DNA of 64,000 nucleotides, taken from Acidobacteriota bacterium. Its GTDB lineage: Bacteria > Acidobacteriota > Terriglobia > 2-12-FULL-54-10. The notes beneath the pieces were generated by a model that saw only the letters and a program-made list of their open reading frames with translations, ran no database searches and had not been told where the DNA came from. Shown in pieces: positions 5,549 through 63,253 of this stretch. Made by a program: the position numbers and the translations under genes. The first letter of the stretch is position 1. The number at the start of each line of letters is the position of its first letter. Location of the stretch: positions 9,032-73,031 of the forward strand of contig SHUM01000004.1 of the NCBI GenBank assembly GCA_009691245.1, read 5' to 3'.

Positions 5549-5567
5549 CGGCAAAGTAACAGCGCCC

Positions 5568-5612
5568 GTGACAGTGCCGCGACCGTCAGCGAGCGGACCC
5601 GGTGGCCGGGCC
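5568..5612 (-). repeat. REP-like dispersed repeat copy (reverse orientation)
   Basis: rc = GGCCCGGCCACCGGGTCCGCTCGCTGACGGTCGCGGCACTGTCAC; matches the family consensus GCTGACGCGCGCGGCWCTGTCACGC. Confidence 0.7.
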
Positions 5613-5700
5613 GCAACGCTTTCTCATTGCTCGCCGCATTGCTTTTCCAACGCTTCCCCAACCTTCCCAGTGATTCTGGCGCGTGACGCTGCACATCGTG

Positions 5701-5745
5701 CCCGCTCAGGCCGGGTCCGCTCGCTGACGCGCGCGGCTCTGTCAC
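5701..5745 (+). repeat. REP-like dispersed repeat copy; forms an inverted pair with 5568-5612
   Basis: CCCGCTCAGGCCGGGTCCGCTCGCTGACGCGCGCGGCTCTGTCAC. Confidence 0.7.
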
Positions 5746-9560: not shown

Positions 9561-9650
9561 GGAGGAATGGGTGAGTGGTTGAAACCGGCGGTCTTGAAAA
9601 CCGTTTGCCTCGAAAGGGGCACGGGGGTTCGAATCCCTCTTCCTCCGCCA
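9561..9650 (+). tRNA. tRNA-Ser (anticodon UGA), including 3' CCA
   Basis: Hand-folded: 7-bp acceptor GGAGGAA/TTCCTCC, anticodon loop CTTGAAA, long variable arm, T-loop GGTTCGAATCC, discriminator G, CCA. Confidence 0.9.
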
Positions 9651-9704
9651 TTATTCGGCAAACTTAAAGCAGAGCCGCGATGGAACATCTCGGCGCGCCG
9701 TGGA

Positions 9705-9768
9705 CCGGGAGGGAGCGCACACGTTCGACGATTGTCAGTGATCGTCAAACGTGTGCGCTCCCTCCCGG
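9705..9768. repeat. 64-nt near-perfect hairpin (21-bp perfect stem CCGGGAGGGAGCGCACACGTT / AACGTGTGCGCTCCCTCCCGG) 55 nt after tRNA-Ser, followed by a partial REP-like motif (GTCGCGGCTCTGTTCACGC)
   Basis: Seen directly; the 22-nt loop is itself quasi-palindromic (GACGAT...ATCGTC). Confidence 0.75.
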
Positions 9769-9805
9769 TCGCGGCTCTGTTCACGCTGCACAATCGAAAG
9801 TAGGT

Positions 9806-13100: not shown

Positions 13101-13134
13101 CTGACCACGTGCCACGCGCGCGGCTCTGTCACGC
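13101..13134 (+). repeat. REP-like dispersed repeat copy
   Basis: CTGACCACGTGCCACGCGCGCGGCTCTGTCACGC, between the STAND gene stop and the cytochrome gene start. Confidence 0.7.
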
Positions 13135-13181
13135 AACACCATCACGCCCTGCACTGGCACATTGTGAACGTGCGCGGCGCC

Positions 13182-15191
13182 CTACTCCCCGCGCTGCTCC
13201 TGGATCGCCTGCGCCCGCTTTCTCAGCGCGGTAGCCTCCTTCGTCCGCCCCAACTCCTGCAACACCGCCGCAAGGTTTTTGCATACCAGCGCAATATGAG
13301 GATGGTCAGGTGGCAGCGACTTTTCGCGGATGGCCAGCGCGCGGCGGTAGAGCGGCTCGGCTTGGCTGTACGCGCCGCGCCCGTTCAAGTAGAAGCCGGT
13401 CTGATTGAGCAGCAGCGCCGCCTCCACAAACTCAAACCCCAGGTTTTCGATCCAACGGGCGCAAGCCAAAGCCTGCGGCAGCATCCGCTCGCATCGAGAC
13501 CAATTCTGAAACTCAGGCATCGGGAAGGCTGCGTCCACGGCCCGCACGGCCCGTTCCGCATAATTCCGCCGGTCCTCCTGCGTCATCCTATCGCGAATAA
13601 CGGCTTGCGCAATCCTGTGAATGCTGTAGGCGCTGGCACCGGTGCTCCTGCTGATCAGGGAATATTTTCGGAGCGGCGCGAGCGCTTCATCCAGCAAGAG
13701 CGGGTTCTGCTGGTAGTCCGCCAGAGCCGCCCCCAGTGCGGAGCCAACCTGCGCAGCACCGCCGGTAACCAGCTCGAACGGGATGTCATCCGGCGCGAGG
13801 AAAGCGCTCACCCGCAGCAGCTCCGCGGCTGGCGGAGTCTTTTCCACTTCTCCAAAGTTTAGCTTCCAGGTGGTGGCCACTAATTCAGAATAGCCTCCGG
13901 CAACCGGACCACGATCATTCAGTAGAGCAACTCCACGATTGCGATAGGTCTTCAGGTAATCCTGGAACGTAGACTCCTTGGCCACAATGTAGGCCGCGGC
14001 CTGCTCCAATGCCAGCGGCAGATAGCCTAGCTCTTTGGCCAAATCCCGCGCGGCCTCCTGCTCCTTCTCCTGGCTTGACTGCCGCGAGGTGCGAGCCAGC
14101 AGGAAGTCCAAAGCCTCGTCTGGCTCGAAGTCTCCAAGGGAATGCGTTGTAACATTTCCCAGTGCGTCAAGAATGCCGGGGCGGGAAGTGAGCAGAATCG
14201 CGCCTTTGATTTCAATCGGAAGCAATGGCTTGATGAGTTCGGGCCAGTCCGCATTGTCAAAAATCAGGAGCCATCCGTCGTTTTCGCTTAACCAGCTCGT
14301 TACCGCATGGCGGACCACAGTCTGGTCCGAAGAATCGCTGCCGGGCAGTTCGAGCATTCGCGCGATTGTCCCGAATCCCGAATTGATGCTTTCCTCCGAG
14401 GAGGCTCGCACCCAGAGAATCGCGCGATAATCATCACGGTGCCGATAGGCGTATTCCGCCGCCGTTTGTGTCTTGCCCTTGCCGCCGAGACCTGTGATCG
14501 CCTGCTTCCTGATCCCCTTGGTGATGAAGTTTTCATGTAGGGTGGCGAGTAGTTTCTCGCGTCCTGTAAACCAATCGGTTCTTTGTTGCGGCACGATAAA
14601 GAACTTTTGGGGGACGACGAAATCTTGTTTGCGTTCTCTTGGTTGTAGATGCGGCTCCGGTCCCAGCGGGGGCTTTGGGGTGGCGTGCTTACCTTTTAGG
14701 CGGCGCAACAGGAGATCGAACCCCTCTTCTGTCGTTGGGTTGTAATGGTTAACCCCTTGAAGAACAATTGGAATGTGTTTAGCGTCATCAGCAGTGAATA
14801 CCACCGGAATGAACTTCGTGTTGCGACCTTGAGAATTGTACAATTCCTGCGTAATGATCGCGCCTTCCCAGGTTGCTCCCAGGCCTTTCCCTACTTCTTC
14901 TTTTTTCCGAAATCGCCGGAGATAAGTCTCGGTACAAATCACCAGGACAAATTCGGATGCCTCGATCTCATCCTCCATCCATGTCGGCCAGCCTTCCGGC
15001 GGGGAGTCGATATATTGATCGATCATGGCGTCAACATTGTTGTCGCGCAGCTTTTTGGCAAGGGCAAGCACTTGATCTTGGAAGGCAGTATCCCCATGTG
15101 CGTAACTGATGAATACGCGCTGTGCGGGACTGGGTTTCTCTTGGCTCAATCGCAACCTCGCATCAAACAAGCAGACAGTATCATAGCCCAC
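13182..15191 (-). CDS. SEFIR/TIR-like domain-NB-ARC (P-loop NTPase)-TPR STAND protein; candidate NLR-like antiphage immunity protein
   Basis: N-terminal VFISYAHGDTAFQDQVLALAKKLRDNNVDAMIDQY...FVLVICTETYL (SEFIR/TIR-superfamily signature). Walker A GLGGKGKTQTAAEY, Walker B LLIFDNAD, NB-ARC-like GxP region, and a C-terminal kinesin-light-chain-type TPR block. 669 aa. Confidence 0.85.
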   Translation of the reverse strand: MGYDTVCLFDARLRLSQEKPSPAQRVFISYAHGDTAFQDQVLALAKKLRDNNVDAMIDQYIDSPPEGWPTWMEDEIEASEFVLVICTETYLRRFRKKEEVGKGLGATWEGAIITQELYNSQGRNTKFIPVVFTADDAKHIPIVLQGVNHYNPTTEEGFDLLLRRLKGKHATPKPPLGPEPHLQPRERKQDFVVPQKFFIVPQQRTDWFTGREKLLATLHENFITKGIRKQAITGLGGKGKTQTAAEYAYRHRDDYRAILWVRASSEESINSGFGTIARMLELPGSDSSDQTVVRHAVTSWLSENDGWLLIFDNADWPELIKPLLPIEIKGAILLTSRPGILDALGNVTTHSLGDFEPDEALDFLLARTSRQSSQEKEQEAARDLAKELGYLPLALEQAAAYIVAKESTFQDYLKTYRNRGVALLNDRGPVAGGYSELVATTWKLNFGEVEKTPPAAELLRVSAFLAPDDIPFELVTGGAAQVGSALGAALADYQQNPLLLDEALAPLRKYSLISRSTGASAYSIHRIAQAVIRDRMTQEDRRNYAERAVRAVDAAFPMPEFQNWSRCERMLPQALACARWIENLGFEFVEAALLLNQTGFYLNGRGAYSQAEPLYRRALAIREKSLPPDHPHIALVCKNLAAVLQELGRTKEATALRKRAQAIQEQRGE

Positions 15192-15375
15192 TGCGCGGCG
15201 CAGCGCACCCGCTCGCCAATCGCTCGTAGTGGGTCAGTTCGCCGTCAGGGCACGACTTCAGTCGTGCCGAAAATGTGCCGCAAGAAAACGCTTCCTCACT
15301 GCCGTAGGCGTAAGCGCAGGCGCGCAGCGCCACAGCGCGGATCATTGCCTTTGGGATTCGCGCGGATTGTACAGT

Positions 15376-15478
15376 GGTGGCGCAGGCATTCTTGCCTGCG
15401 GGGTTTGAAGTGCTTTTATTTTGGCGGGCTGGAATGCCTGCCCTACCAAAAGACGCAGGCAGGAATGCCTGCGCCACC
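15376..15478. repeat. 103-bp element with 25-nt terminal inverted repeats (GGTGGCGCAGGCATTCTTGCCTGCG / CGCAGGCAGGAATGCCTGCGCCACC, 24/25 match) and internal AATGCCTGC repeats
   Basis: Seen directly; MITE-like or structured-RNA-like; about 185 bp upstream of the STAND start codon. Confidence 0.6.
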
Positions 15479-15969
15479 CATATGCCTGCATCACTGCTAC
15501 AAACGAAGGATGATTTCGGCGGTCGGGGGGTGAGCCATAAATTACCCTCACGGCAATTTGTCAACCACTTTGCAAATGGGAAATAGGGAGCGCGAGTGAA
15601 CAAAGCGCGACTTGCAAACCGCGAATTTTGTCAAATTGGAAAATTTGGATTCTTTGGGCAGAAAGGCGCAGGGATAATTGAAAGGAAAGTTGCTGCGGGC
15701 GCTCTGCCTGTCCCCATTCTCCGACCCCAATCCCCTGGTTTGTCAATCTGGTCAGAGTGGTCAGAACCGTGAAAATTTGCACTTTGGGCTGGGCCGACGA
15801 TTTGGTCGCGCCAGCCGCTCACTTTTAGGGTGACAAGAAGCATTGAAACGGTGGGAATCGGTGTGCTACTCTGAGGGCCATTTGCAAGCCCGGGTCTGTC
15901 TTCTGAAATGCGCTGATCATCTGGAATCCCCTGAAGGGGGCGACCTGTGGGCAGGAGGGAGCAGTCATC

Positions 15970-18120
<2,151 letters not shown>

Positions 18121-18271
18121 CGCTCGCGCAACTGACTTGTGTGGCCCGCACGGCAGTGCCGCTGCCTTGTTGTGCCAGGTGGTCGCTTCAAACGAGCGTT
18201 CCCGCATCAGGGTGTTTCACTTGCTGGTTGTCGCAATCAATGTTAACTTACACAGCGGATTGGTAGTTGTT

Positions 18272-18294
18272 CCCATCTGCGTAATCTGCGGATG
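18272..18294 (+). repeat. Copy of motif family S (CCCATCTGCGTAATCTGCGGATG)
   Basis: Seen directly; overlaps the start of the kinase remnant. Confidence 0.55.
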
Positions 18295-18660
18295 TTCCAA
18301 ACTATGGTTGGCAAGACGATCTCCCATTACCGGATCGTGGAGCTGCTGGGCGGCGGCGGGATGGGCGTCGTCTATCGGGCGGAGGACTTGACGCTCGGCC
18401 GCATGGTGGCGCTGAAGTTTCTCTCGGCGGAGTTGGCCGCGGATCGCCAGGCGCTCGAGCGTTTCCACCGCGAGGCGCGCGCGGCCTCGGCATTGAACCA
18501 TCCCAACATCTGCACCATTGAGGAGTACGAAGGCCAGCCCTTCATCGTGATGGAACTGCTCGATGGCGCGACGCTGAAGCACGCCATCGGCGGGCGAACA
18601 ACTGTACGAGTTGGGCGCGCAGGTGGCTCAACAAGTCGGTGGTGTACACAGCAGATGTTC
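18292..18660 (+). pseudogene. Ser/Thr protein kinase, N-terminal remnant (about 100 aa of kinase subdomains I-V, then frameshift and truncation)
   Basis: [26 protein letters not shown]...HPNICTI...[18 protein letters not shown]. The catalytic loop HRDLKP and the DFG/APE motifs are absent, and downstream sequence is unrelated. Confidence 0.7.
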
Positions 18661-18684
18661 TCACGAACATCTGTTATTTATTGG
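18652..18684 (+). terminator. Hairpin CAGATGTTC-TCAC-GAACATCTG followed by TTATTTATT at the kinase truncation point / island boundary
   Basis: Seen directly. Confidence 0.5.
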
Positions 18685-18763
18685 CAGCAAAAACGGTCGA
18701 ATTCTATTGATGTGAGCCGGGGGAAGGAGCGCGAGAACCGAATAGTGTAATGGGGAATTTCAG

Positions 18764-20020
18764 CTAACGAACCATGAGCTTGAAAGTGTAAGTTTGACCA
18801 TCGCCCAAAACAAGCCTGGCGTCTGACGCTGTTGGAGTTCCGGTACAGCAACTTGTATTTTGGAAGTTAACCTGATACAAGCTTACGGCTCCGGGAGAAA
18901 GTCCGGCGTAAACAATTTCCATTTCCGAACTTCCTACCAGCAAACGGGGTTTGGTCAGTAGCAGGTAAATGTCGCCAGGCGGAGCAAACTCGTTTATGGG
19001 TACAAACGGGGTGGTAGAGCCAAGGCCGGTTCCCCACAAAAGGTAATACTCGCCGCACACAAGTGGTTCACCCGGCGCAAGCAAGCGGTACTGGCTGTCC
19101 TGCACCAGGGTTCTTGCGTTTGGGTCAAAGACCTGGAATATCCCGGGGAACGAACTTGTGATTCCCAAGGAACTTGAGGTGTTAGATATCCCTTCTCGGT
19201 TTACAGTTATTCGGGTTGCGGTTCCTTCAATGTCCGGAACCAGAAAATTAACCTGGTTGGGAGAAACGAAATGGAGTGGCGCCTCTTTGTCACCAGAACT
19301 GCTAGTAACAAACACTCTCACGCCACCAAGAGTGGTGGGGAAAGGGGCGGTACTGGCGTGTTCGGTGCTGTTGGCTAGGTCACCCCACAAAGTCATCCAA
19401 GTTCCCGGTGCCAAGTTGGTTGCGGTAGCGAAACTAGCTGCATTGGTAATAGCGGTAATGTGCGGAGCGCCTACAGGAACAGGGAACACTTTGTATGTGA
19501 ATAGTCTGCCGTCGCTGACTTTCTGGACCAAGTACAGGAGCGGACCAGAAGCAACCATTCGTTGCATCTCTCCTTGCGGGGCGTCCAGGTCTGTAAGCAG
19601 GGTTTCCACAATTTGGCCAGAAAGACGGATCAAGCCTCGCACCCCGGGACGCAAAGTTGTTATGAAGTAAAGCGGTCCATTGGGGACCCCAGCAAGGCTA
19701 ATAACATCGCTAACCGTTACGTTTCCAACCCGGCCGTTGGTTACCAGCTTTTGCTCTAATGTATCCGGGTTTAGAAATTGGCTAACTTGCAGCCCACCAG
19801 AATTGGTGTAAGCCACTGTTGCTGTTTCATTATATACTGCAATGGCCGTAATATTCTGAAAGCCGGACAAAACGACTTTAGTTTCTCCCCACGTACCGTT
19901 GAACACGACACTAATGCGGAGCAGAGTACGGTCAGTTTCATTTACAACGTAGGCATATCTGGTATTGACCCCAACCAAGACTAAGCGTTTGTTTTCGCTC
20001 AATCTAATCCGGTAAATCAC
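18764..20020 (-). CDS. C-terminal part of a frameshifted secreted protein with a Solibacter-type C-terminal domain (GTG-initiated ORF in the track)
   Basis: The C-terminal 220 aa match the Solibacter-type C-terminal domain also present in the 27249 and 29126 products (PGIFQV...GEPLVCGEYYLLWGTGLG...AGLSPGAVSLYQVNFQ). No signal peptide at its own start. Local GC about 50 percent. Confidence 0.55.
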   Translation of the reverse strand: MIYRIRLSENKRLVLVGVNTRYAYVVNETDRTLLRISVVFNGTWGETKVVLSGFQNITAIAVYNETATVAYTNSGGLQVSQFLNPDTLEQKLVTNGRVGNVTVSDVISLAGVPNGPLYFITTLRPGVRGLIRLSGQIVETLLTDLDAPQGEMQRMVASGPLLYLVQKVSDGRLFTYKVFPVPVGAPHITAITNAASFATATNLAPGTWMTLWGDLANSTEHASTAPFPTTLGGVRVFVTSSSGDKEAPLHFVSPNQVNFLVPDIEGTATRITVNREGISNTSSSLGITSSFPGIFQVFDPNARTLVQDSQYRLLAPGEPLVCGEYYLLWGTGLGSTTPFVPINEFAPPGDIYLLLTKPRLLVGSSEMEIVYAGLSPGAVSLYQVNFQNTSCCTGTPTASDARLVLGDGQTYTFKLMVR

Positions 20021-20112
20021 TTCCAGAATGGGACTACTTCCGGCTGGCAGTTCAAAAATTCCTTGGTAAACATTTGTTGGGTCGTCTGTGGGTTGGTAGT
20101 AGGCTCCTAAAA

Positions 20113-20670
20113 CTATTCGACCAGAACCTTTTTTAAACCCCAGACATCCAAGAAAGTACCAACTGTCTCTGGCTTATTGCGGTAAGTTATTGTGTCGCTT
20201 GTTCCAAAGAGCCTAATAGGTGGACCAGGAAGACCGCGCCCTTTGACGTACAGGGTAGAGTTGTAAGTCGAAGAACTAGTTGGAGTGTACTTAACATAAT
20301 GTACTCCACCACTGCTCCCACAGGCTACAGCAGCCCTTGCTGATTGTGGGAAACGCCCTTGGAATGGGGCAATTAGGTAAGTGACTCCGCCTAAAGCGCT
20401 TTCATTACTCTGGTCTAAAAGTTCTGGCGTGGCAGCAATTCTGGGATCCCAGTGTTTAAGGAATAAGCCAGAATTGCTGCAAAGGCCGCCTTCGGTAAAA
20501 GGTGGTCCCGGATCATCGGCTGTGAAGGTTTCTGCCGGCAATGCAAGTAGCTGTGGTGAAAAACGGGAATCCGGAACTCCCTGCAGGGTTGTTAATTCTG
20601 CCCTGACTTTCGGAGACAGGGCTGCAACCAGTACTAACAAAAGAACCAATCCGCTAGGTTCGGATCTCAT
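20113..20670 (-). CDS. N-terminal part (signal peptide plus 160 aa) of the same frameshifted gene
   Basis: Signal peptide MRSEPSGLVLLLVLVAALSPKVRAE. The ORF terminates just after a T6/A6 tract at 20129-20134; the +1 frame continues uninterrupted into the 18764-20020 ORF. Confidence 0.55.
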   Translation of the reverse strand: MRSEPSGLVLLLVLVAALSPKVRAELTTLQGVPDSRFSPQLLALPAETFTADDPGPPFTEGGLCSNSGLFLKHWDPRIAATPELLDQSNESALGGVTYLIAPFQGRFPQSARAAVACGSSGGVHYVKYTPTSSSTYNSTLYVKGRGLPGPPIRLFGTSDTITYRNKPETVGTFLDVWGLKKVLVE

Positions 20671-20908
20671 GTAAATGATATTATCTCATGGTTAGTCAGC
20701 CGCGTTATCCTGTTGAATAGAATTATTCAAATCCATCAGGGTATGCAGGCTACTATCTGGCAGCGCCCAAATGATCAATGCATGCACGCGTCGTCATTCC
20801 CAATTCACAACGAGAGTGGAGAGCCATGGCCTTGGTCCTCGCCGGAGCGACCGCCGGAGCAAACGGTCCCGCGCAAACGCTGATTGCAGAGAAGGGCGGC
20901 CGGGAGGT

Positions 20909-20954
20909 GGGTTTTCCATAGGCCCGCTTGCTGACGCCCGCGGCACTGTCACGC
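20909..20954 (+). repeat. REP-like dispersed repeat copy (full-length form GGGTTTTCCATAGGCCCGCTTGCTGACGCCCGCGGCACTGTCACGC)
   Basis: Seen directly; overlaps the higA stop. Confidence 0.75.
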
Positions 20955-21251
20955 AGCATGGATGGCGGCGGGCTTGTAGCGGTGCACGTGAATTTGATTC
21001 TCAGTGGCGCGGTGGACGGCCAGGTCGTATGCCAACTGCATGCGCATCAGGTGGTCCATTTTGGGGCCGCAGGCCTTTTCGATGCGCAGGGCCATCTGCG
21101 GGCTCAGGTCGGTGCGCTCATTCAACAGCAGCGACAAGGCTTGGCGGCTGACTTTCAGAATGCCGGCGGCCTCCGAAACGGATAGTTCTAATGGCTGGAT
21201 AATCTGGCGTCGAATGATGCCGCCGGGATGCGGCGGATTTTTCATAGCCAT
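20949..21251 (-). CDS. higA: HigA-family antitoxin (XRE-type HTH), orphan
   Basis: MKNPPHPGGIIRRQIIQPLELSVSEAAGILKVSRQALSLLLNERTDLSPQMALRIEKA is the classic HigA/VapI antidote signature. No RelE/HigB-like ORF in either flank. Confidence 0.75.
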   Translation of the reverse strand: MAMKNPPHPGGIIRRQIIQPLELSVSEAAGILKVSRQALSLLLNERTDLSPQMALRIEKACGPKMDHLMRMQLAYDLAVHRATENQIHVHRYKPAAIHAA

Positions 21252-21278
21252 GGATTGAATGCTCCCAATCGCTGGGCG

Positions 21279-21314
21279 TGTCCGCTTGCTTACGCGCGCG
21301 GCTCTGTGGCACGG
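21279..21314 (+). repeat. REP-like dispersed repeat copy
   Basis: GTCCGCTTGCTTACGCGCGCGGCTCTGTGGCACGG; same orientation as 20909-20954, so higA is bracketed by direct copies. Confidence 0.7.
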
Positions 21315-21320
21315 CGCCGG

Positions 21321-30478: not shown

Positions 30479-30537
30479 GCTACAGAGACCGGAAGGAAGC
30501 GGAGGTTGATCTCCATAACGAGACCAACCCCCGCTCC

Positions 30538-30560
30538 CTGACGGTCGCGGCTCTGTAAGC
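30538..30560 (+). repeat. REP-like repeat, short copy (CTGACGGTCGCGGCTCTGTAAGC)
   Basis: Seen directly. Confidence 0.5.
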
Positions 30561-57940: not shown

Positions 57941-57975
57941 TCCGTGGATAGGAACCGCCCTCTTGCAACCGGAGC

Positions 57976-58023
57976 GGGTTTTTCCATTGGCCCGCTTGCT
58001 CACGCGCGCGGCACCGTCACGCG
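57976..58023 (+). repeat. REP-like dispersed repeat copy (full-length form)
   Basis: GGGTTTTTCCATTGGCCCGCTTGCTCACGCGCGCGGCACCGTCACGCG. Confidence 0.75.
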
Positions 58024-61200: not shown

Positions 61201-61508
61201 TTGATCCCTGCGCGTTCCGCCTGCCGGAGGCCGGATATTTCGGCAATCTCGGCCGCAACACCATCATCGGACCCCCGCTGACCAATGTGGACTTCAGCGT
61301 CCTGAAACGCTTTGAGCTGCCGCGCGAAGGTCTAAGCCTGCAATGGCGCACCGAGGTCTTCAACCTGTTCAATCACGCTAACTTCTTCAGCCCCAACCGG
61401 ACCATCTTCTCGACCGCCGATGGCGTGGCGCGCAGCGACTTCGGGCAGATTCGCTCGACGCGCACCAGCGCGCGGCAGATTCAGTTCGGGTTGAAGCTGC
61501 TGTTCTAG
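58245..61508 (+). CDS. TonB-dependent receptor with N-terminal carboxypeptidase-regulatory-like domain
   Basis: Signal peptide, CarbopepD_reg-like N-terminus, plug, barrel, C-terminal RQIQFGLKLLF. Confidence 0.85.
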   Translation: MKTMQATPGSLRWTGVRAAMLSILLGVMLAALAPAKLSAQSAGTISGTVRDESSAVLPGVEVVMRNVETGFTRTVATDAAGRYSAPQLPLGQYEVRASFTGFKTEVRSGLTLTVGREAVVELILKVGSVAETVEVTGEAPLVETTNSAVAGLVSDQQVRDLPLNGRSIEQLAILQLGVTLSRNGNTGMFSGSVTRINIGGARTTSNSFLLDGTDINDIWNNTPGSVAGVSLGVDTIREFKVLVNNYSAEYGRAGGGVVLSVTRSGTNELHGSAFEFLRNSALDARNFFDRDSLFPSKVTDPPPFRRNQFGFTLGGPIKTDKTFFFGSFEGLRQNLTTTQFSRVPSARIRAFAHPTVAPYLALLPLPAPNAPEGADGTVEYVGQVREPIDENYMMVRADHSFSSSDSLFGRYTFDNANKFTPNIPNTLALADRSRNQYLTIEENHIFSPAWLAVFRAGYNRSVSEEACPRQVEIPSSLDLIPGRPFASSGGITPGSGIVGLSNCGTSPQGNWYNLLEGSTDMTFIRSGHSLKTGVIGKNIRVNKRGEANQSGSYTFTSLFNFLGISNLAGTPLANGPTSSLFTGQLPLDANTSRSWRQELIGTYIQDEWKATSKLTLNLGLRYEVVTAPSEAFGRGSSLLNPQADRNVKVFGKEPFLPNLSKKNFAPRIGFAYDPTGSGRTVIRGGGGIFYDQILPATYQIAVLRNPPFYVRASITNPPWPNAYQLLLAGVDPGSQALNNFTPSSSPRTMQYNFGVQHQFAGGWVANMLYLGSRGMHLISARDANSALPQIQQDGRYFFPLNAVRRNPNFGEIVNYTTDGNSNYNSLGLGINKRFSQGFQLQGSYNWSKLIDNTSGQYAPETASGSRSLMNPDDPRVDRSLSAQNVGQNLVGNVTYELPLGAGASGIAAQLIHGWQLNSIVTLSSGVPVNLELGFNRARNAQVTGTGFQQRPDLVSGSSNNPTDGASIGCAGGFAAGTPLGTPDLYVDPCAFRLPEAGYFGNLGRNTIIGPPLTNVDFSVLKRFELPREGLSLQWRTEVFNLFNHANFFSPNRTIFSTADGVARSDFGQIRSTRTSARQIQFGLKLLF

Positions 61509-61535: not shown

Positions 61536-61640
61536 CGTCGTCATCCCGAGCGCAGCGAGGGACCTGCTTTTCGCACCTACTGATGAAGATGCGGATTGAA
61601 AAAGCAGGTCCCTCGCTGCGCTCGGGATGACGACTTTTTA
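61536..61640 (+). terminator. Long perfect hairpin (about 32-bp stem GTCATCCCGAGCGCAGCGAGGGACCTGCTTTT ... AAAAGCAGGTCCCTCGCTGCGCTCGGGATGAC) plus T-run; rho-independent terminator
   Basis: Seen directly, 28 nt after the receptor stop. Confidence 0.8.
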
Positions 61641-61704: not shown

Positions 61705-63060
61705 ATGCTGCAACGCATCGCCGCACGCGCGCTCGCTTTCTCGCAACATTACATGCCGGCGCCCTACCTGCTCTCGCTGCTGCTGACGTTTGTCTCGGCG
61801 GCGCTGGCCTTCGCCATCACGCACACGGCGGTCGAGAAGATTCTCTCGTCCTGGTACGGCGGCATCTGGGAGATTCTCGCCTTCACCACGCAGATGGCGC
61901 TGATCCTGCTGTGCGGCCACGCGCTGGTCGATGCGCCGCTGGTGCGCCGCGCGCTTGACCGCATCAGCGCGATCCCGCGCACGGCGGTCCACGCCGGGAT
62001 GCTGGTGTTTCTGGTGGGCTGGGCCACGGCGCTATTCAACTGGGGATTCTCGCTGGTGGTTTCCGGCGTGCTGGTGCGCGAGATTCCGCGCCGCATGACC
62101 GGCGTGTCGAAAGGCTATCTCGCCGCAGCGGGCTACACGGGATGGGCCGTGTGGGCCTCGGGAATTTCCAGTTCCATCGCGCTGGTTACGGCCACGCCCG
62201 GCTCGCCCATGAACATTATTGAGCGCATGTCGGGCGCGACCATTCCGCTGTCAGAGACGCTGCTGCCGCTCTATAACGTAGTCCCCGTGCTGGGCATGGC
62301 CATACTCATGCCGCTACTGTTCGCTAAAATTCATCCCGCATCCGAAACAGTGCCGCGCGCGTCAGCAAGCGGGCCGCTGGAACACCCTGCTCCAGACGCG
62401 CCAGTTGGCCACGATGCTTCCGGTCACCGAATCCCTAAGACCATCGCAGAGCGCATTGAGCAGAGCCGTCTGGTTACAATCATTCTCGTCGGCATGGCCG
62501 CGCTGTTCATTGTCCAGCGCATCGCGGCGGGCGCGTTCAATCTGGACCTGAACATGATGATCTTTCTGTTGCTCGCGCTGGGATGGGCGCTGCACGGCAC
62601 CCCTATCAGTTACATGCAGGCGTTCCACGGCGGCGCAAAGGCAGCCGGGCCGATCCTGCTCGCCTATCCGCTGTACGGCGGCATCCTCGGGCTGATCCGC
62701 GACACCGGTCTGGCCGATTGGTTCGCGCAGCAGTTTGTCGCATTTTCCACCAGTCATACCCTGCCCTTCTGGTCCTACGTCAGTTCCAACGTCATCACGC
62801 TGTTCGTGCCGTCGGGCGGCGGACACTGGGCCGTGCAGGGTCCGGTGATGGTGAAGGCCGCGCTGGAACTCGACGCTTCCCTCGCCAAGACCGCCATGGC
62901 CGTGGCCTTCGGCGAGCAGACCGGCAACCTCTTCCAACCCTTCTGGGCGCTGCCCATCGTCAGCATCGGCGGCGTCAGCGTGCGCGAAATGATGGGCTAC
63001 TGCATGGTGGCCTTCTTCATCGCCTTCCCCCTGTTCGGCATCGCCCTGCTGGTGTTCTAG
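61705..63060 (+). CDS. Short-chain fatty acid transporter family (AtoE-like) integral membrane protein
   Basis: 12-14 TM helices; sequence pattern typical of the AtoE family (my recollection). Confidence 0.65.
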   Translation: MLQRIAARALAFSQHYMPAPYLLSLLLTFVSAALAFAITHTAVEKILSSWYGGIWEILAFTTQMALILLCGHALVDAPLVRRALDRISAIPRTAVHAGMLVFLVGWATALFNWGFSLVVSGVLVREIPRRMTGVSKGYLAAAGYTGWAVWASGISSSIALVTATPGSPMNIIERMSGATIPLSETLLPLYNVVPVLGMAILMPLLFAKIHPASETVPRASASGPLEHPAPDAPVGHDASGHRIPKTIAERIEQSRLVTIILVGMAALFIVQRIAAGAFNLDLNMMIFLLLALGWALHGTPISYMQAFHGGAKAAGPILLAYPLYGGILGLIRDTGLADWFAQQFVAFSTSHTLPFWSYVSSNVITLFVPSGGGHWAVQGPVMVKAALELDASLAKTAMAVAFGEQTGNLFQPFWALPIVSIGGVSVREMMGYCMVAFFIAFPLFGIALLVF

Positions 63061-63117
63061 CGTGGCGCGGCGCGTGACAGTGCCGCGCGCGTGCGCAAGC
63101 AGGCCTATGGAATAACC
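63061..63117 (-). repeat. REP-like dispersed repeat copy (reverse orientation)
   Basis: rc = GGTTATTCCATAGGCCTGCTTGCGCACGCGCGCGGCACTGTCACGCGCCGCGCC. Confidence 0.75.
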
Positions 63118-63192
63118 ACGTCCCGGTTACGCCGTCTTTTCCCAATCCAGAGCACAACGCCATCGTGAAACCCAACCATCTCCAAACGCGGC

Positions 63193-63253
63193 GTTGTGTT
63201 CCATCGGCCCGCTCGCTGACGCGCGCGGCACTGTCACGCGGCTCTGTCACGCG
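63193..63253 (+). repeat. REP-like dispersed repeat copy with a tandem-duplicated 3' module (GGCACTGTCACGCGGCTCTGTCACGCG); inverted partner of 63061-63117
   Basis: Seen directly. Confidence 0.75.

What the first reader, a model, noticed from the sequence alone, without database searches (positions are those of the whole stretch)
15192..15969. 780-bp ORF-free, repeat-dense leader between the STAND gene and EF-G2: IR-bounded 103-bp element plus a TTTGTCAA triplet
Coordinates 15376-15478 carry 25-nt terminal inverted repeats (GGTGGCGCAGGCATTCTTGCCTGCG versus rc GGTGGCGCAGGCATTCCTGCCTGCG, 24/25). Between them sit nested GCAGGCA/TGCCTGC micro-hairpins and at least 4 AATGCCTGC copies. This looks like a small MITE or a highly structured RNA. 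Further along, three TTTGTCAA motifs (about 15557, 15627, 15738) lie in an AT-richer stretch. The region is the divergent promoter space for the defence-like STAND gene (minus strand) and EF-G2 (plus strand), so these could be regulatory sites or a cis-encoded sRNA controlling the STAND gene.
Basis: seen in the sequence. Interest (0 to 1): 0.5.

Follow-up and report, generated by a model that had tools for sequence, protein, structure and literature searches.

The report
REPIN-headed dispersed non-coding repeat
The inverted-repeat element is a cluster of REP hairpins (a REPIN, the kind of small parasitic DNA moved by RAYT transposases), and with the TTTGTCAA sites it forms one 432-bp non-coding repeat found at several unrelated places in two related Acidobacteria; it is not a leader of the EF-G gene or a dedicated switch for the defence gene.

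Summary
Arms 15376-15400 and 15454-15478 match 24/25 and fold at -72 kcal/mol (z = -7). TTTGTCAA occurs only three times in 64 kb, all here.

Each arm is a REP: a GTGG tag followed by the palindrome GCAGGCA-TTCY-TGCCTGC. A third, GTAG-tagged REP and a truncated fourth lie beside them. The same 18-mer with the same one-sided GTRG tag occurs in at least 120 loci from many phyla. It is usually paired with tags outward, and in three genomes it lies beside or flanks RAYT transposase genes. So 15376-15478 is a REPIN.

The REPIN and the TTTGTCAA stretch form one unit, 15376-15807. This unit is the only similarity between the window and a Ca. Sulfopaludibacter contig with unrelated flanking genes. A third copy is annotated as a hypothetical protein, probably in the window's own genome.

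The tail is a one-directional, degenerate 9-bp repeat array (TTTGG, TKGTCAR). It is not coding and does not fold unusually well as RNA.

EF-G2 has its own conserved promoter at 15843-15872, downstream of the unit. More distant EF-G2 orthologues lack the unit.

Verdict: a REPIN-headed dispersed repeat, a variant of a known kind. The function of the tail is unknown.

The parts
15376..15807 (+). Whole dispersed non-coding repeat unit: REPIN head plus repeat-array tail.
   Evidence: It is the only DNA or protein-level similarity between the window and L033/L146. The left boundary falls at the REP tag. The right boundary falls exactly after GATTTGGTC, shown by a three-way alignment of the window, the orthologous locus L148 and the paralogous locus L146.
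15376..15478 (.). REPIN / REP cluster: the IR-bounded 103-bp element.
   Evidence: The arms match 24/25, and 32 nt at 88%. The fold is -72.4 kcal/mol, z = -7. The tags-outward inverted pairing is the dominant arrangement of this REP elsewhere: 27 '+-' pairs against 7 '-+' and 4 '++'.
15377..15400 (+). REP 1: GTGG tag (15377-15380), C, then palindrome core GCAGGCATTCTTGCCTGC (15382-15399), G.
   Evidence: The tag agrees with the G-T-R-G 5' flank conserved in 140 instances.
15424..15446 (-). REP 2, degenerate: GTAG tag (15446->15443), G, then GCAGGCATTCCAGCCCGC with 2 mismatches to the core.
   Evidence: In L033 the same position holds a better palindrome.
15454..15477 (-). REP 3: GTGG tag (15477->15474), C, then GCAGGCATTCCTGCCTGC (15472->15455), G. 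On the - strand it is followed by TCTTTTGG, which is terminator-like.
15482..15494 (-). Truncated fourth REP (GTGA-T-GCAGGCAT): a 5' half only.
   Evidence: family D2, inverted repeat I5. Conserved in L033.
15479..15594 (+). Tail block A: includes GGATGATTTCGGCGGTC and the first TTTGTCAA (15557-15564).
   Evidence: 87% identical to L033. The third copy, P0242, most likely has TTTTTCAA here, inferred from F-F-N in its translation.
15607..15658 (+). Tail block B: 9-bp register AATTTTGTC/AAATTGGAA/AATTTGGAT/TCTTTGGGC with the second TTTGTCAA (15627-15634).
   Evidence: 90% identical to L033. The translation REFCQIGKFGFFG is shared by all three copies. The 9-bp autocorrelation has z = 3.4, and the register is shown.
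15659..15725 (+). Variable spacer of the tail; cannot be aligned between copies.
15726..15807 (+). Tail block C: third TTTGTCAA (15739-15746) followed at 9-bp steps by TGGTCAG (15749-15755, 15758-15764); ends in GATTTGGTC.
   Evidence: 94% identical to L033, with a 41-nt exact run. The two copies from the Sulfopaludibacter sample are 102/103 identical to each other, counted by eye on the alignment. The 9-bp periodicity has z = 3.1.
15843..15872 (+). EF-G2 promoter, not part of the repeat: -35 TTGAAA (15843-15848), 18-nt spacer, TGc + TACTCT (15867-15872).
   Evidence: Found by a relaxed scan. The GTGTGYTAnnnT motif is invariant in five orthologous upstream regions, and TTGAAAC is shared with L122 and L123.
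15873..15969 (+). EF-G2 5' UTR with AGGGAGC Shine-Dalgarno.
   Evidence: Conserved with L148 and L121.
15192..15375 (.). Unique, non-repeated spacer between the STAND start and the repeat. It contains a perfect 8-bp hairpin, GGCACGAC-TTCA-GTCGTGCC, at 15249-15268.
   Evidence: No similarity to L033 left of the REPIN. The hairpin was read directly from the sequence.

Best explanation
Window 15376-15807 is one copy of a roughly 430-560-bp dispersed, non-coding repeat family.

Its head, 15376-15478, is a REPIN. Two GTGG-tagged REP hairpins (a 7-bp stem GCAGGCA/TGCCTGC with loop TTCY) lie in inverted orientation with their tags outward. A third, GTAG-tagged REP lies between them, and a truncated fourth follows. 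REPs of this type are the recognition and cleavage substrates of RAYT (Y1/HUH) transposases. These move them as single-stranded hairpins, without terminal duplications.

Its tail, 15479-15807, is a strand-asymmetric, degenerate 9-bp tandem array with unit about ARNTTGGTC. The TTTGTCAA and TGGTCAG heptamers and the TTTGG motifs are its best-preserved units. The number of units differs between copies.

The unit sits between the STAND gene and EF-G2's own promoter because it inserted, or was copied, there. That happened before the split from the Sulfopaludibacter-like relative.

Shown: REP identity, unit boundaries, multiple unrelated loci, the non-coding nature, and the independence of the EF-G2 promoter.

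Inferred: mobilisation by a RAYT encoded elsewhere in the genome, or alternatively spread and homogenisation by recombination. Also inferred: the tail acts at the DNA level as an array of protein-binding sites rather than as an RNA. Any effect on the neighbouring genes, such as hairpin-mediated insulation or termination, would be a by-product.
For: REP identity
- In 140 instances of the 18-mer from 120 GTDB loci, the 5' flank is G(126) T(113) G/A(94+39) G(122). The 3' flank is unconserved apart from the base that pairs with position -1.
- In those loci the same apex A-TTCY-T occurs on other, perfectly complementary stems 46 times, against 0-4 for control loops. Most of these also carry the tag.
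- Adjacent copies are mostly inverted with tags outward, 27 against 7 and 4.
- Genes matching Pfam Y1_Tnp above cut-off lie beside these REPs in L027, L035 and L044. NCBIfam REP_Tyr_transpos scores 92-93 bits (cut-off 80) for L027 and L044, and 62.5 bits, below the cut-off, for L035. In L044 a REPIN sits on each side of the gene.
- The published definition of GTAG-tagged REPs includes GTGG variants in Verrucomicrobia (PMC3733652).

One unit at several loci
- L033/L146 shares only 15374-15807 with the window, by both blastn and tblastx. Its neighbours are an RHS fragment and a Ser/Thr kinase.
- P0242 (MSO21543.1) is the translation of a third copy with a different left flank. Its accession lies in the same series as the window's EF-G2, MSO19205.1.
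- L148, the true orthologue of the EF-G2 locus (92.2% over 2402 nt), carries block C at the same place. It matches its sample-mate L146 at 102/103 positions (counted by eye on the alignment) up to GATTTGGTC, and then follows the window's unique sequence.

Tail
- 9-bp autocorrelation has z = 3.0-6.7.
- TTTGG occurs 4 times against 0.3 expected and 8 against 0.5, and never on the other strand.
- TKGTCAR occurs 5 and 9 times, all on the + strand.
- Copies differ by 66-nt and 45-nt blocks made of the same motifs.

Non-coding
- The window copy has an in-frame stop, and L033 has a compensated frameshift across well-conserved DNA.

Not the EF-G2 leader
-.
Against: - No RAYT gene lies in the 64-kb window.
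- The window holds only this one REP cluster, so high copy number and a cognate RAYT in this genome are unproven.
- The unit has no hairpin of note at its right end and no conserved flanking tetranucleotide. How a RAYT would move the 330-bp tail is therefore unclear.
- Only three or four copies are known, from one narrow clade. Two metagenome scans and nhmmer on all fetched loci found no others.
- Block-wise conservation (a 41-nt exact run next to spacer that cannot be aligned) suggests the tail is under functional constraint, which a purely selfish reading does not explain.
- Assigning P0242 to the window's genome rests on accession arithmetic.
Confidence: 0.6

Rival explanations
1. Portable regulatory cassette ('mobile promoter' or operator array). 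The tail is an array of binding sites for a transcription factor or nucleoid protein, possibly with TTGACA-type -35 boxes on the minus strand. It controls whichever gene lies next to it: here the STAND gene to the left, or EF-G2 from an upstream-activator position. The REPIN serves as a 5'-UTR hairpin or insulator.
For: - The motifs are one-directional, strongly over-represented and 9-bp-phased.
- Conservation is block-wise, with a 41-nt exact run.
- The reverse complement of TTTGTCAA contains the consensus -35, TTGACA.
- The right end of the unit lies 36 nt upstream of the EF-G2 -35, and this arrangement is kept in the L148 orthologue.
- In both loci with DNA, a conflict-type gene (TIR-STAND, RHS fragment) lies about 190-210 nt from the REPIN side on the minus strand.
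- Homologous promoter regions upstream of unrelated genes are a described phenomenon (PMC3488235).
Against: - No acceptable -35/-10 pair is conserved in both copies on either strand.
- In L146 the right end abuts the 3' end of a convergent kinase gene, and the left neighbour is an orphan RHS fragment, so no consistent target gene exists.
- EF-G2 orthologues without the unit keep the same promoter.
- The first heptamer is probably not conserved in P0242.
- No candidate binding protein was identified.
Confidence: 0.2
2. Small RNA gene on the minus strand. Transcription starts about 15530, downstream of TTGACA (15564->15559) and the conserved ATTTATGGCT. The RNA carries the conserved GACCGCCGAAAUCAUCC and ends at the REP 3 hairpin followed by UCUUUUGG, giving a product of about 85 nt.
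For: - TTGACA-16-ATTTAT is present in both the window and L033 (read).
- The REP 3 hairpin with a T-run scores as terminator-like on the minus strand.
- A 17-nt exact block lies within the putative RNA.
- The L033 version of this stretch folds with z = -2.5.
Against: - The -10 candidate is poor: it lacks A at position 2.
- The window version folds with z = -1.35 only.
- Conservation continues well beyond the putative RNA on both sides, through the whole REPIN and blocks B and C.
- Terminator-like sites are no more frequent than in shuffles (2 against 1.4).
- No Rfam match.
- With two DNA copies no covariation test is possible.
Confidence: 0.1
3. Remnant of a recombination or replication site: arm-type integrase sites of an att region, iterons, or a partition site. 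It would have been left at the edge of an integrated island carrying the STAND gene downstream of tRNA-Ser.
For: - Arrays of short one-directional repeats in an AT-richer stretch.
- tRNA-Ser lies 5.7 kb to the left, at 9561-9650.
- The interval between them holds a defence-type gene, and the locus differs from the context of more distant EF-G2 orthologues.
Against: - No integrase, transposase, Rep or Par gene lies between 1 and 21 kb or next to the L146 copy.
- No DnaA boxes.
- No similarity to any plasmid or phage record.
- No copy of the tRNA 3' end was found at the unit.
Confidence: 0.05
4. A real small protein gene, as annotated for the paralogous copies (P0242, 144 aa, 'hypothetical protein EXQ56_14035'; P0241, 171 aa). 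The window copy would be a pseudogene.
For: The same plus-strand frame is open in two copies and ends at the same stop (...GVAGKLI*).
Against: - The N-termini lie in the non-homologous flanks.
- A third of the ORF is the translation of REP hairpins.
- The window copy has an in-frame TAG.
- L033 is frame-shifted for about 18 codons across DNA that stays well conserved, so the constraint is on nucleotides.
- There is no Pfam domain. A search of 1.84 billion representatives found no relative other than the copy itself.
Confidence: 0.03

Closest known systems
REPINs / RAYT-associated REP sequences (Bertels & Rainey 2011, PMC3116915; Nunvar 2010)
   Same: Two short palindromes in inverted orientation, separated by a short spacer, forming one long hairpin. 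A one-sided 5' tetranucleotide tag. The same REP flanks RAYT genes in other genomes. No target-site duplication.
   Different: Here an extra REP and a truncated REP are included. The REPIN is not seen as a free-standing high-copy element in the 64 kb. It is fixed to a 330-bp non-palindromic tail that is copied with it. The cognate RAYT of this genome was not seen.
GTAG-tagged REP super-family, e.g. the GTAG-20 elements of Opitutus terrae, which are mostly GTGG-tagged (Di Nocera et al. 2013, PMC3733652)
   Same: GTRG tag, 6-9-bp stem, dimers with variable spacers, and presence in PVC phyla.
   Different: That survey reported only TIR-flanked tyrosine transposases (TIRYTs), not REPs, in Acidobacteria. 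I could not read the GTAG-20 consensus (it is in a figure), so sequence identity with that family is untested.
E. coli BIMEs / RIB-RIP elements
   Same: A mosaic of REPs in alternating orientation joined to conserved non-palindromic motifs that bind proteins (IHF, gyrase). This comparison rests on my own knowledge.
   Different: The extra-palindromic motifs of BIMEs are tens of bases long, not a 330-bp repeat array. No IHF consensus was found here.
MITE with an internal minisatellite in Porphyromonas gingivalis (PMC4596501, title and abstract only)
   Same: A non-autonomous repeat that carries a variable-number short tandem array.
   Different: That element is a TIR-bounded MITE. This one has a hairpin cluster at one end only, and its array is far more degenerate; TRF does not call it.
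Putative mobile promoters (Matus-Garcia et al. 2012, PMC3488235)
   Same: A homologous intergenic segment found next to non-homologous genes.
   Different: No promoter could be recognised inside the unit.

Membership tests
REP / REPIN (GTAG-tagged, RAYT-associated) | Short (20-40 bp) imperfect palindrome able to form a stem-loop. | tested here: met
   A 7-bp stem with a 4-nt loop occurs three times; the whole cluster folds at -72 kcal/mol, z = -7.
REP / REPIN (GTAG-tagged, RAYT-associated) | Conserved GTAG-type tetranucleotide on one side of the palindrome only. | tested here: met
   GTGG, GTAG and GTGG in the window. G-T-R-G is conserved 5' in 140 instances, while the 3' flank is not. GTGG and GTRG variants are accepted in the published definition.
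REP / REPIN (GTAG-tagged, RAYT-associated) | REPIN architecture: two REPs inverted, with a short spacer. | tested here: met
   Arms at 15376-15400 and 15454-15478 with tags outward. The same arrangement dominates elsewhere, 27 of 38 tagged pairs.
REP / REPIN (GTAG-tagged, RAYT-associated) | RAYT gene flanked by the same REP. | tested here: inconclusive
   Met in other genomes: L027 and L044 (NF047646, 92-93 bits against cut-off 80; Y1_Tnp above cut-off) and L035 (Y1_Tnp above cut-off; NF047646 62.5 bits, below it). No RAYT lies in this window. The rest of the genome was not available.
REP / REPIN (GTAG-tagged, RAYT-associated) | Many dispersed, mostly extragenic copies in the same genome. | tested here: inconclusive
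   Only one cluster in 64 kb. A second copy in the same MAG is inferred from P0242.
Classical MITE (DDE-transposase derived) | Terminal inverted repeats flanked by a target-site duplication. | tested here: not met
   For the 103-bp element the flanks are ...TACAGT and CATATG...; for the 432-bp unit they are ...TACAGT and GCGCCAG.... Neither pair is a duplication. The 432-bp unit has no TIR, and its ends are not TG...CA.
Any described RNA family (Rfam 15) | Match at or above the family's gathering score. | tested here: not met
   The best hit is mir-581 at 27 bits against a gathering score of 100, a generic long hairpin. At gathering thresholds the window yields only tRNA-Ser.
Structured cis-regulatory RNA / sRNA in the tail | Folding energy or covariation beyond chance. 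| tested here: not met
   z = -0.39 (+) and -0.64 (-) for 15479-15840. With two DNA copies, covariation cannot be tested.
EF-G2 leader / 5' UTR | Conserved with EF-G2 orthologues and located downstream of its promoter. | tested here: not met
   Only 15843-15969 is shared with the orthologues at 76-83% identity, and the unit lies upstream of the conserved -35/-10.
Chromosomal origin (oriC) | Cluster of DnaA boxes. | tested here: not met
   One box with 2 mismatches in the interval; the background is 1.3 per kb.
CsrB/Rsm-type protein-sponge RNA | Excess of GGA motifs. | tested here: not met
   GGA occurs 7 times against 6.3 expected (P = 0.45) in the window tail and 13 against 8.9 in L033.

The most novel reading that the evidence does not exclude
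The 432-bp unit is a new type of composite non-autonomous element. A REPIN 'head' supplies mobility through a RAYT. It carries as cargo a variable-length, one-directional 9-bp repeat array that a host or element protein coats. This would make a portable insulator or regulatory cassette that is kept uniform within a genome and is retained next to conflict genes and upstream of EF-G2.
Probability: 0.12. Interest if true: 0.55.

Novelty: new variant of a known kind. Interest (0 to 1): 0.3.

Why it matters
For annotation, the unit removes a tempting but wrong reading of this intergenic region as a riboswitch-like leader or a defence-gene sRNA. It also fixes the real EF-G2 promoter.

For repeat biology it gives two modest points:
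1. One REP hairpin, with apex A-TTCY-T, a GTRG tag and co-varying stems, is shared by RAYT-bearing genomes of Planctomycetota, Verrucomicrobiota, Acidobacteriota, Armatimonadota and others. This is wider than the usual picture of lineage-specific, vertically inherited REPIN-RAYT pairs. Acidobacteria were previously reported to have only TIR-flanked tyrosine transposases.
2. A REPIN can be welded to a long non-palindromic array and copied with it.

If the array proves to bind a protein, the unit would be a natural example of a mobile regulatory or insulating cassette.

Tried and rejected
- Rfam, at E-value and gathering thresholds: nothing relevant.
- Sigma-70 consensus scan: 0 sites. A relaxed scan recovers only the EF-G2 promoter as conserved. 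Sigma-54 spacing (GG-N10-GC) was checked by eye around TTGCA 15777-15781 and is absent.
- blastn against plasmids and phages: no match.
- Metagenome scans with a block C 25-mer (0 hits) and a block B 20-mer (8 hits, all chance, with no extension).
- Viral scans with blocks A and C: none, or chance only.
- nhmmer profile of the tail against all 150+ fetched loci: only the known copies.
- STAND homologue search, to obtain orthologous upstream regions: the nearest relatives are at most 50% identical, so it gave nothing usable.
- Search of 1.84 billion representative proteins with the spurious-ORF profile: only P0242. The DNA for P0242 could not be retrieved.
- Tandem Repeats Finder: no array called. 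The periodicity shows up only by autocorrelation.
- oriC / DnaA boxes: rejected.
- CsrA sponge: rejected.
- Protein-coding reading: rejected because of the stop and the frameshift.
- A hairpin at the right end as an IS200/IS605-like RE: not significant, z = -1.6 and -0.2.
- All-against-all clustering of ORFs near the REP: apart from RAYT, only housekeeping families recur, such as ABC ATPases and kinases.
- The octamer GGGGTGAG at 15526-15533 fits the GGGGWSAS motif reported in TIRs of acidobacterial TIRYT genes. It is not conserved in L033, so I treat it as coincidence.
Full report
**1. What is in the sequence**

The interval lies between a minus-strand gene at 13182-15191 and a plus-strand gene at 15970-18120. 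The first encodes a TIR/SEFIR-NB-ARC-DUF7779-TPR STAND protein. The second encodes an EF-G paralogue with all five EF-G domains.

The 25-nt arms are at 15376-15400 and 15454-15478 and match 24/25. There are no other matches in the window and none in shuffles. The pairing extends to 32 nt. The stretch folds at -72.4 kcal/mol, z = -7.0.

TTTGTCAA occurs exactly three times in 64 kb, at 15557, 15627 and 15739, all on the + strand. AATGCCTGC occurs three times here, not four.

**2. The arms are REPs and the element is a REPIN**

Each arm is itself a hairpin, GCAGGCA-TTCY-TGCCTGC, preceded by GTGG. Between the arms, on the minus strand, lies GTAG-G-GCAGGCATTCCAGCCCGC. Just outside them lies a half copy, GTGA-T-GCAGGCAT.

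These came from Planctomycetota, Verrucomicrobiota, Acidobacteriota, Lentisphaerota, Armatimonadota, Bacteroidota and others. I aligned the 140 instances on the orientation of the loop. The five bases 5' of the palindrome read G(126) T(113) G/A(94/39) G(122) S. The 3' side is unconserved except for the base that pairs with position -1.

A one-sided GTAG-like tag followed by a palindrome is the published signature of REPs. GTRG and GTGG variants are explicitly recorded, the latter in the verrucomicrobium Opitutus terrae (PMC3733652).

Three further results support this:
- In the same loci the apex A-TTCY-T sits on other, perfectly complementary stems (CAGAC 25, CGGAC 7, CCGAC 4 and so on). That is 46 cases against 0-4 for control loops, and most carry the tag. 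The stem co-varies while the tag and loop stay fixed.
- Neighbouring copies are mostly inverted with the tags outward (27, against 7 and 4). This is the arrangement in the window.
- Genes with the HUH motif lie next to these REPs in L027, L035 and L044, and all three match Pfam Y1_Tnp above its cut-off. L027 and L044 score 92-93 bits on NCBIfam 'REP-associated tyrosine transposase' (cut-off 80); L035 scores 62.5 bits, below that cut-off. In L044 a REPIN lies on each side of the gene.

No such gene is in the window. The window also has no other copy of this REP. Two membership features therefore remain untested for this genome: high copy number and a cognate RAYT.

No Rfam family matches. The mir-581 hit at 27 bits is just a long hairpin.

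**3. The REPIN and the TTTGTCAA stretch are one repeat unit**

One of the 120 loci, L033, comes from a Ca. Sulfopaludibacter sp. SbA3 MAG; the same contig was fetched again as L146. It matches the window over three stretches: 15374-15594 (86%), 15607-15658 (90%) and 15726-15807 (94%, with a 41-nt exact run). It matches nowhere else, either as DNA or in six-frame translation.

Its neighbours are unrelated to the window's. To the left are a fragment of an RHS/YD-shell gene and several small ORFs. To the right is the 3' end of an 802-aa Ser/Thr kinase gene. Similarity begins exactly at the REP tag.

A protein-database search with the open frame that runs through the L033 copy found one further sequence, P0242. 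This is 'hypothetical protein EXQ56_14035', MSO21543.1, on an 11.4-kb contig.
- Its translation follows the window in block A, where it lacks the 66-nt insertion of L033.
- It follows L033 after block B.
- Its N-terminal flank differs from both.

It is therefore a third locus. Its accession belongs to the same series as the window's EF-G2, MSO19205.1. With the locus-tag number, this makes it likely, though not proven, that it lies in the window's own genome.

L148 is a 4.5-kb contig from the same metagenome as L146. It is the true orthologue of the window's EF-G2 locus, at 92.2% identity over 2402 nt. It carries block C at the same place upstream of EF-G2.
- By my count on the three-way alignment, it is identical to L146 at 102 of 103 positions up to GATTTGGTC.
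- After that it follows the window's unique sequence, while L146 goes its own way.

This fixes the right boundary at 15807. It also shows that copies within one sample resemble each other more than orthologous copies do between species. That points to recent copying or gene conversion. The L148 contig also ends inside the unit, as assemblies tend to do at repeats.

**4. Anatomy of the tail (15479-15807)**

The tail is AT-richer than its surroundings (48-53% G+C). It shows several repeat features:
- A 9-bp periodicity, with z = 3.0-3.4 in the window and up to 6.7 in L033.
- When cut in register, units such as AATTTTGTC / AAATTGGAA / AATTTGGAT / TCTTTGGGC and TGGTTTGTC / AATCTGGTC / AGAGTGGTC.
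- TTTGG at 4 against 0.3 expected in the window and 8 against 0.5 in L033, and never on the other strand.
- The heptamer TKGTCAR 5 and 9 times, always on the + strand, against about 0.26 per kb per strand in the window as a whole.

The copies differ by insertions of 66 and 45 nt built from the same motifs. TRF does not call the array because it is too degenerate. The three TTTGTCAA sites are simply the best-preserved units of this array. The first is probably TTTTTCAA in P0242.

The tail does not fold better than shuffled sequence on either strand, with z = -0.4 and -0.6.

It is not a conserved protein either. The window has an in-frame stop. L033 is frame-shifted for about 18 codons over well-conserved DNA. 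The ORF starts lie in non-homologous flanks. Nothing else in 1.84 billion representative proteins resembles it.

**5. What belongs to EF-G2**

I fetched the upstream regions of EF-G2 orthologues at 92, 83, 76 and 76% protein identity. They share with the window only the last 110-130 nt. All five carry GTGTGYTAnnnT. The window, L122 and L123 carry TTGAAAC 18 nt upstream of it, and all have an AGGAGC-type ribosome-binding site.

The EF-G2 promoter is therefore TTGAAA (15843-15848), an 18-nt spacer, and TGc-TACTCT (15867-15872). This lies downstream of the repeat unit. The orthologues at 76-83% identity have no trace of the unit.

**6. How it most likely works**

Shown:
- The head is a bona fide REP cluster of a RAYT-associated family.
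- The head and tail are copied together to unrelated loci.
- The unit is non-coding.
- It is independent of the EF-G2 promoter.

Inferred:
- The unit is propagated either by a RAYT acting on the REP head, or by recombination between copies. RAYT transposition is single-strand and hairpin-guided, which fits the absence of terminal inverted repeats and target duplications.
- The tail, being phased, one-directional and not structured as RNA, works at the DNA level as a protein-binding array, if it works at all.

Block-wise conservation argues for some constraint. I could not identify a promoter, DnaA boxes, an excess of GGA or any plasmid or phage relative. I put 0.6 on the 'REPIN-headed dispersed repeat, primarily selfish' reading. 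The rivals are:

| Reading | Confidence |
|---|---|
| Portable regulatory cassette | 0.2 |
| Minus-strand sRNA ending at the REP 3 hairpin | 0.1 |
| Recombination or replication site remnant | 0.05 |
| Real small protein | 0.03 |

**7. Comparison with known elements, and novelty**

The head passes the sequence-level membership tests for GTAG-type REPs and REPINs. The genome-level tests (copy number, cognate RAYT) could not be run.

The whole unit is closest in concept to E. coli BIMEs, which are REPs plus conserved extra-palindromic motifs, and to a MITE carrying a minisatellite (PMC4596501). It differs from both in having a 330-bp degenerate 9-bp array attached to one side of a REPIN. I rate it a new variant of a known kind, of modest interest (0.3). 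The finding is largely explained, and the unexplained part, the function of the tail, rests on three or four copies from one clade.

Noticed in passing
window 5556-5602, 5711-5745, 13113-13147, 20900-20957, 21274-21315, 30531-30556, 57967-58023, 62347-62385, 63059-63112, 63199-63250: A different and much more abundant dispersed repeat, about 35-55 nt (GTGACAGTGCCGCGCGCGTCAGCGAGCGG...), in both orientations. Two pairs form IR-bounded elements of about 170-180 bp (5568-5745 and 63071-63240). One copy sits in the 50-nt gap between the STAND gene's 3' end and the next gene's start.
   Followed up: partly
window 61537-61634: A perfect 35-nt inverted repeat (GTCGTCATCCCGAGCGCAGCGAGGGACCTGCTTTT) with a 28-nt spacer, just after the ORF ending at 61505. 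It is followed by TTTTT, so it looks like a terminator or another palindromic repeat family.
   Followed up: no
window 9561-9650 and 9703-9770: tRNA-Ser(TGA) is followed 50 nt later by a 30-nt, 97% inverted repeat. The 26 nt at 9756-9781 recur downstream of EF-G2 in the orthologous contig L148 (2587-2612).
   Followed up: no
window 18120-20960 compared with L148 2443-3546: Relative to the orthologous contig, the window carries about 2.8 kb extra downstream of EF-G2. The extra DNA includes a 167-aa N-terminal fragment of a Ser/Thr kinase (18247-18747) and a 469-aa ORF without Pfam hits (18767-20173). This is an indel polymorphism next to the studied locus.
   Followed up: partly
window 13182-15191 (-): The TIR-NB-ARC-TPR protein has 669 aa. 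Its nearest relatives, at most 50% identical, have 700-1170 aa with more TPR repeats, and some are named 'FxSxx-COOH system TPR protein'. It may be C-terminally shortened. An independent assembly calls a start 40 codons further in, which would clip the TIR domain.
   Followed up: no
L035 2830-3760 (Sangeribacter MAG, Bacteroidota): The same 18-mer core is embedded in a 47-bp unit repeated three times in tandem and once inverted upstream of a RAYT-like gene. A direct plus inverted pair lies downstream. Here the core is preceded by GGAAA/GGAGA, not by GTRG.
   Followed up: partly
L044 3062-3190 and 3871-3995 (Verrucomicrobiae MAG): The REPINs flanking the RAYT gene combine several hairpins with the same ATTCC apex on different stems (GCGCAGAC, GGGAC, GGCGAC, GCAGGC). 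This shows stem co-variation within a single element.
   Followed up: partly
L149-L156 (IMG/VR contigs): The REP core occurs in only 8 of 2.9 million viral contigs. Some copies carry GTAG or GTGG tags, so phage carriage is rare but not nil.
   Followed up: partly
L146 10640-10675 (= L033 3821-3853): The 14-nt AGCGGCCCAGGAAG, which includes the stop codon of the kinase gene, is directly repeated 19 nt away at the junction with the repeat unit.
   Followed up: no
window 15249-15268: A perfect 8-bp hairpin, GGCACGAC-TTCA-GTCGTGCC, lies in the unique spacer between the STAND start and the REPIN. TACAAT (minus strand, 15371->15366) directly abuts the REPIN and could be a -10 for the STAND gene.
   Followed up: no
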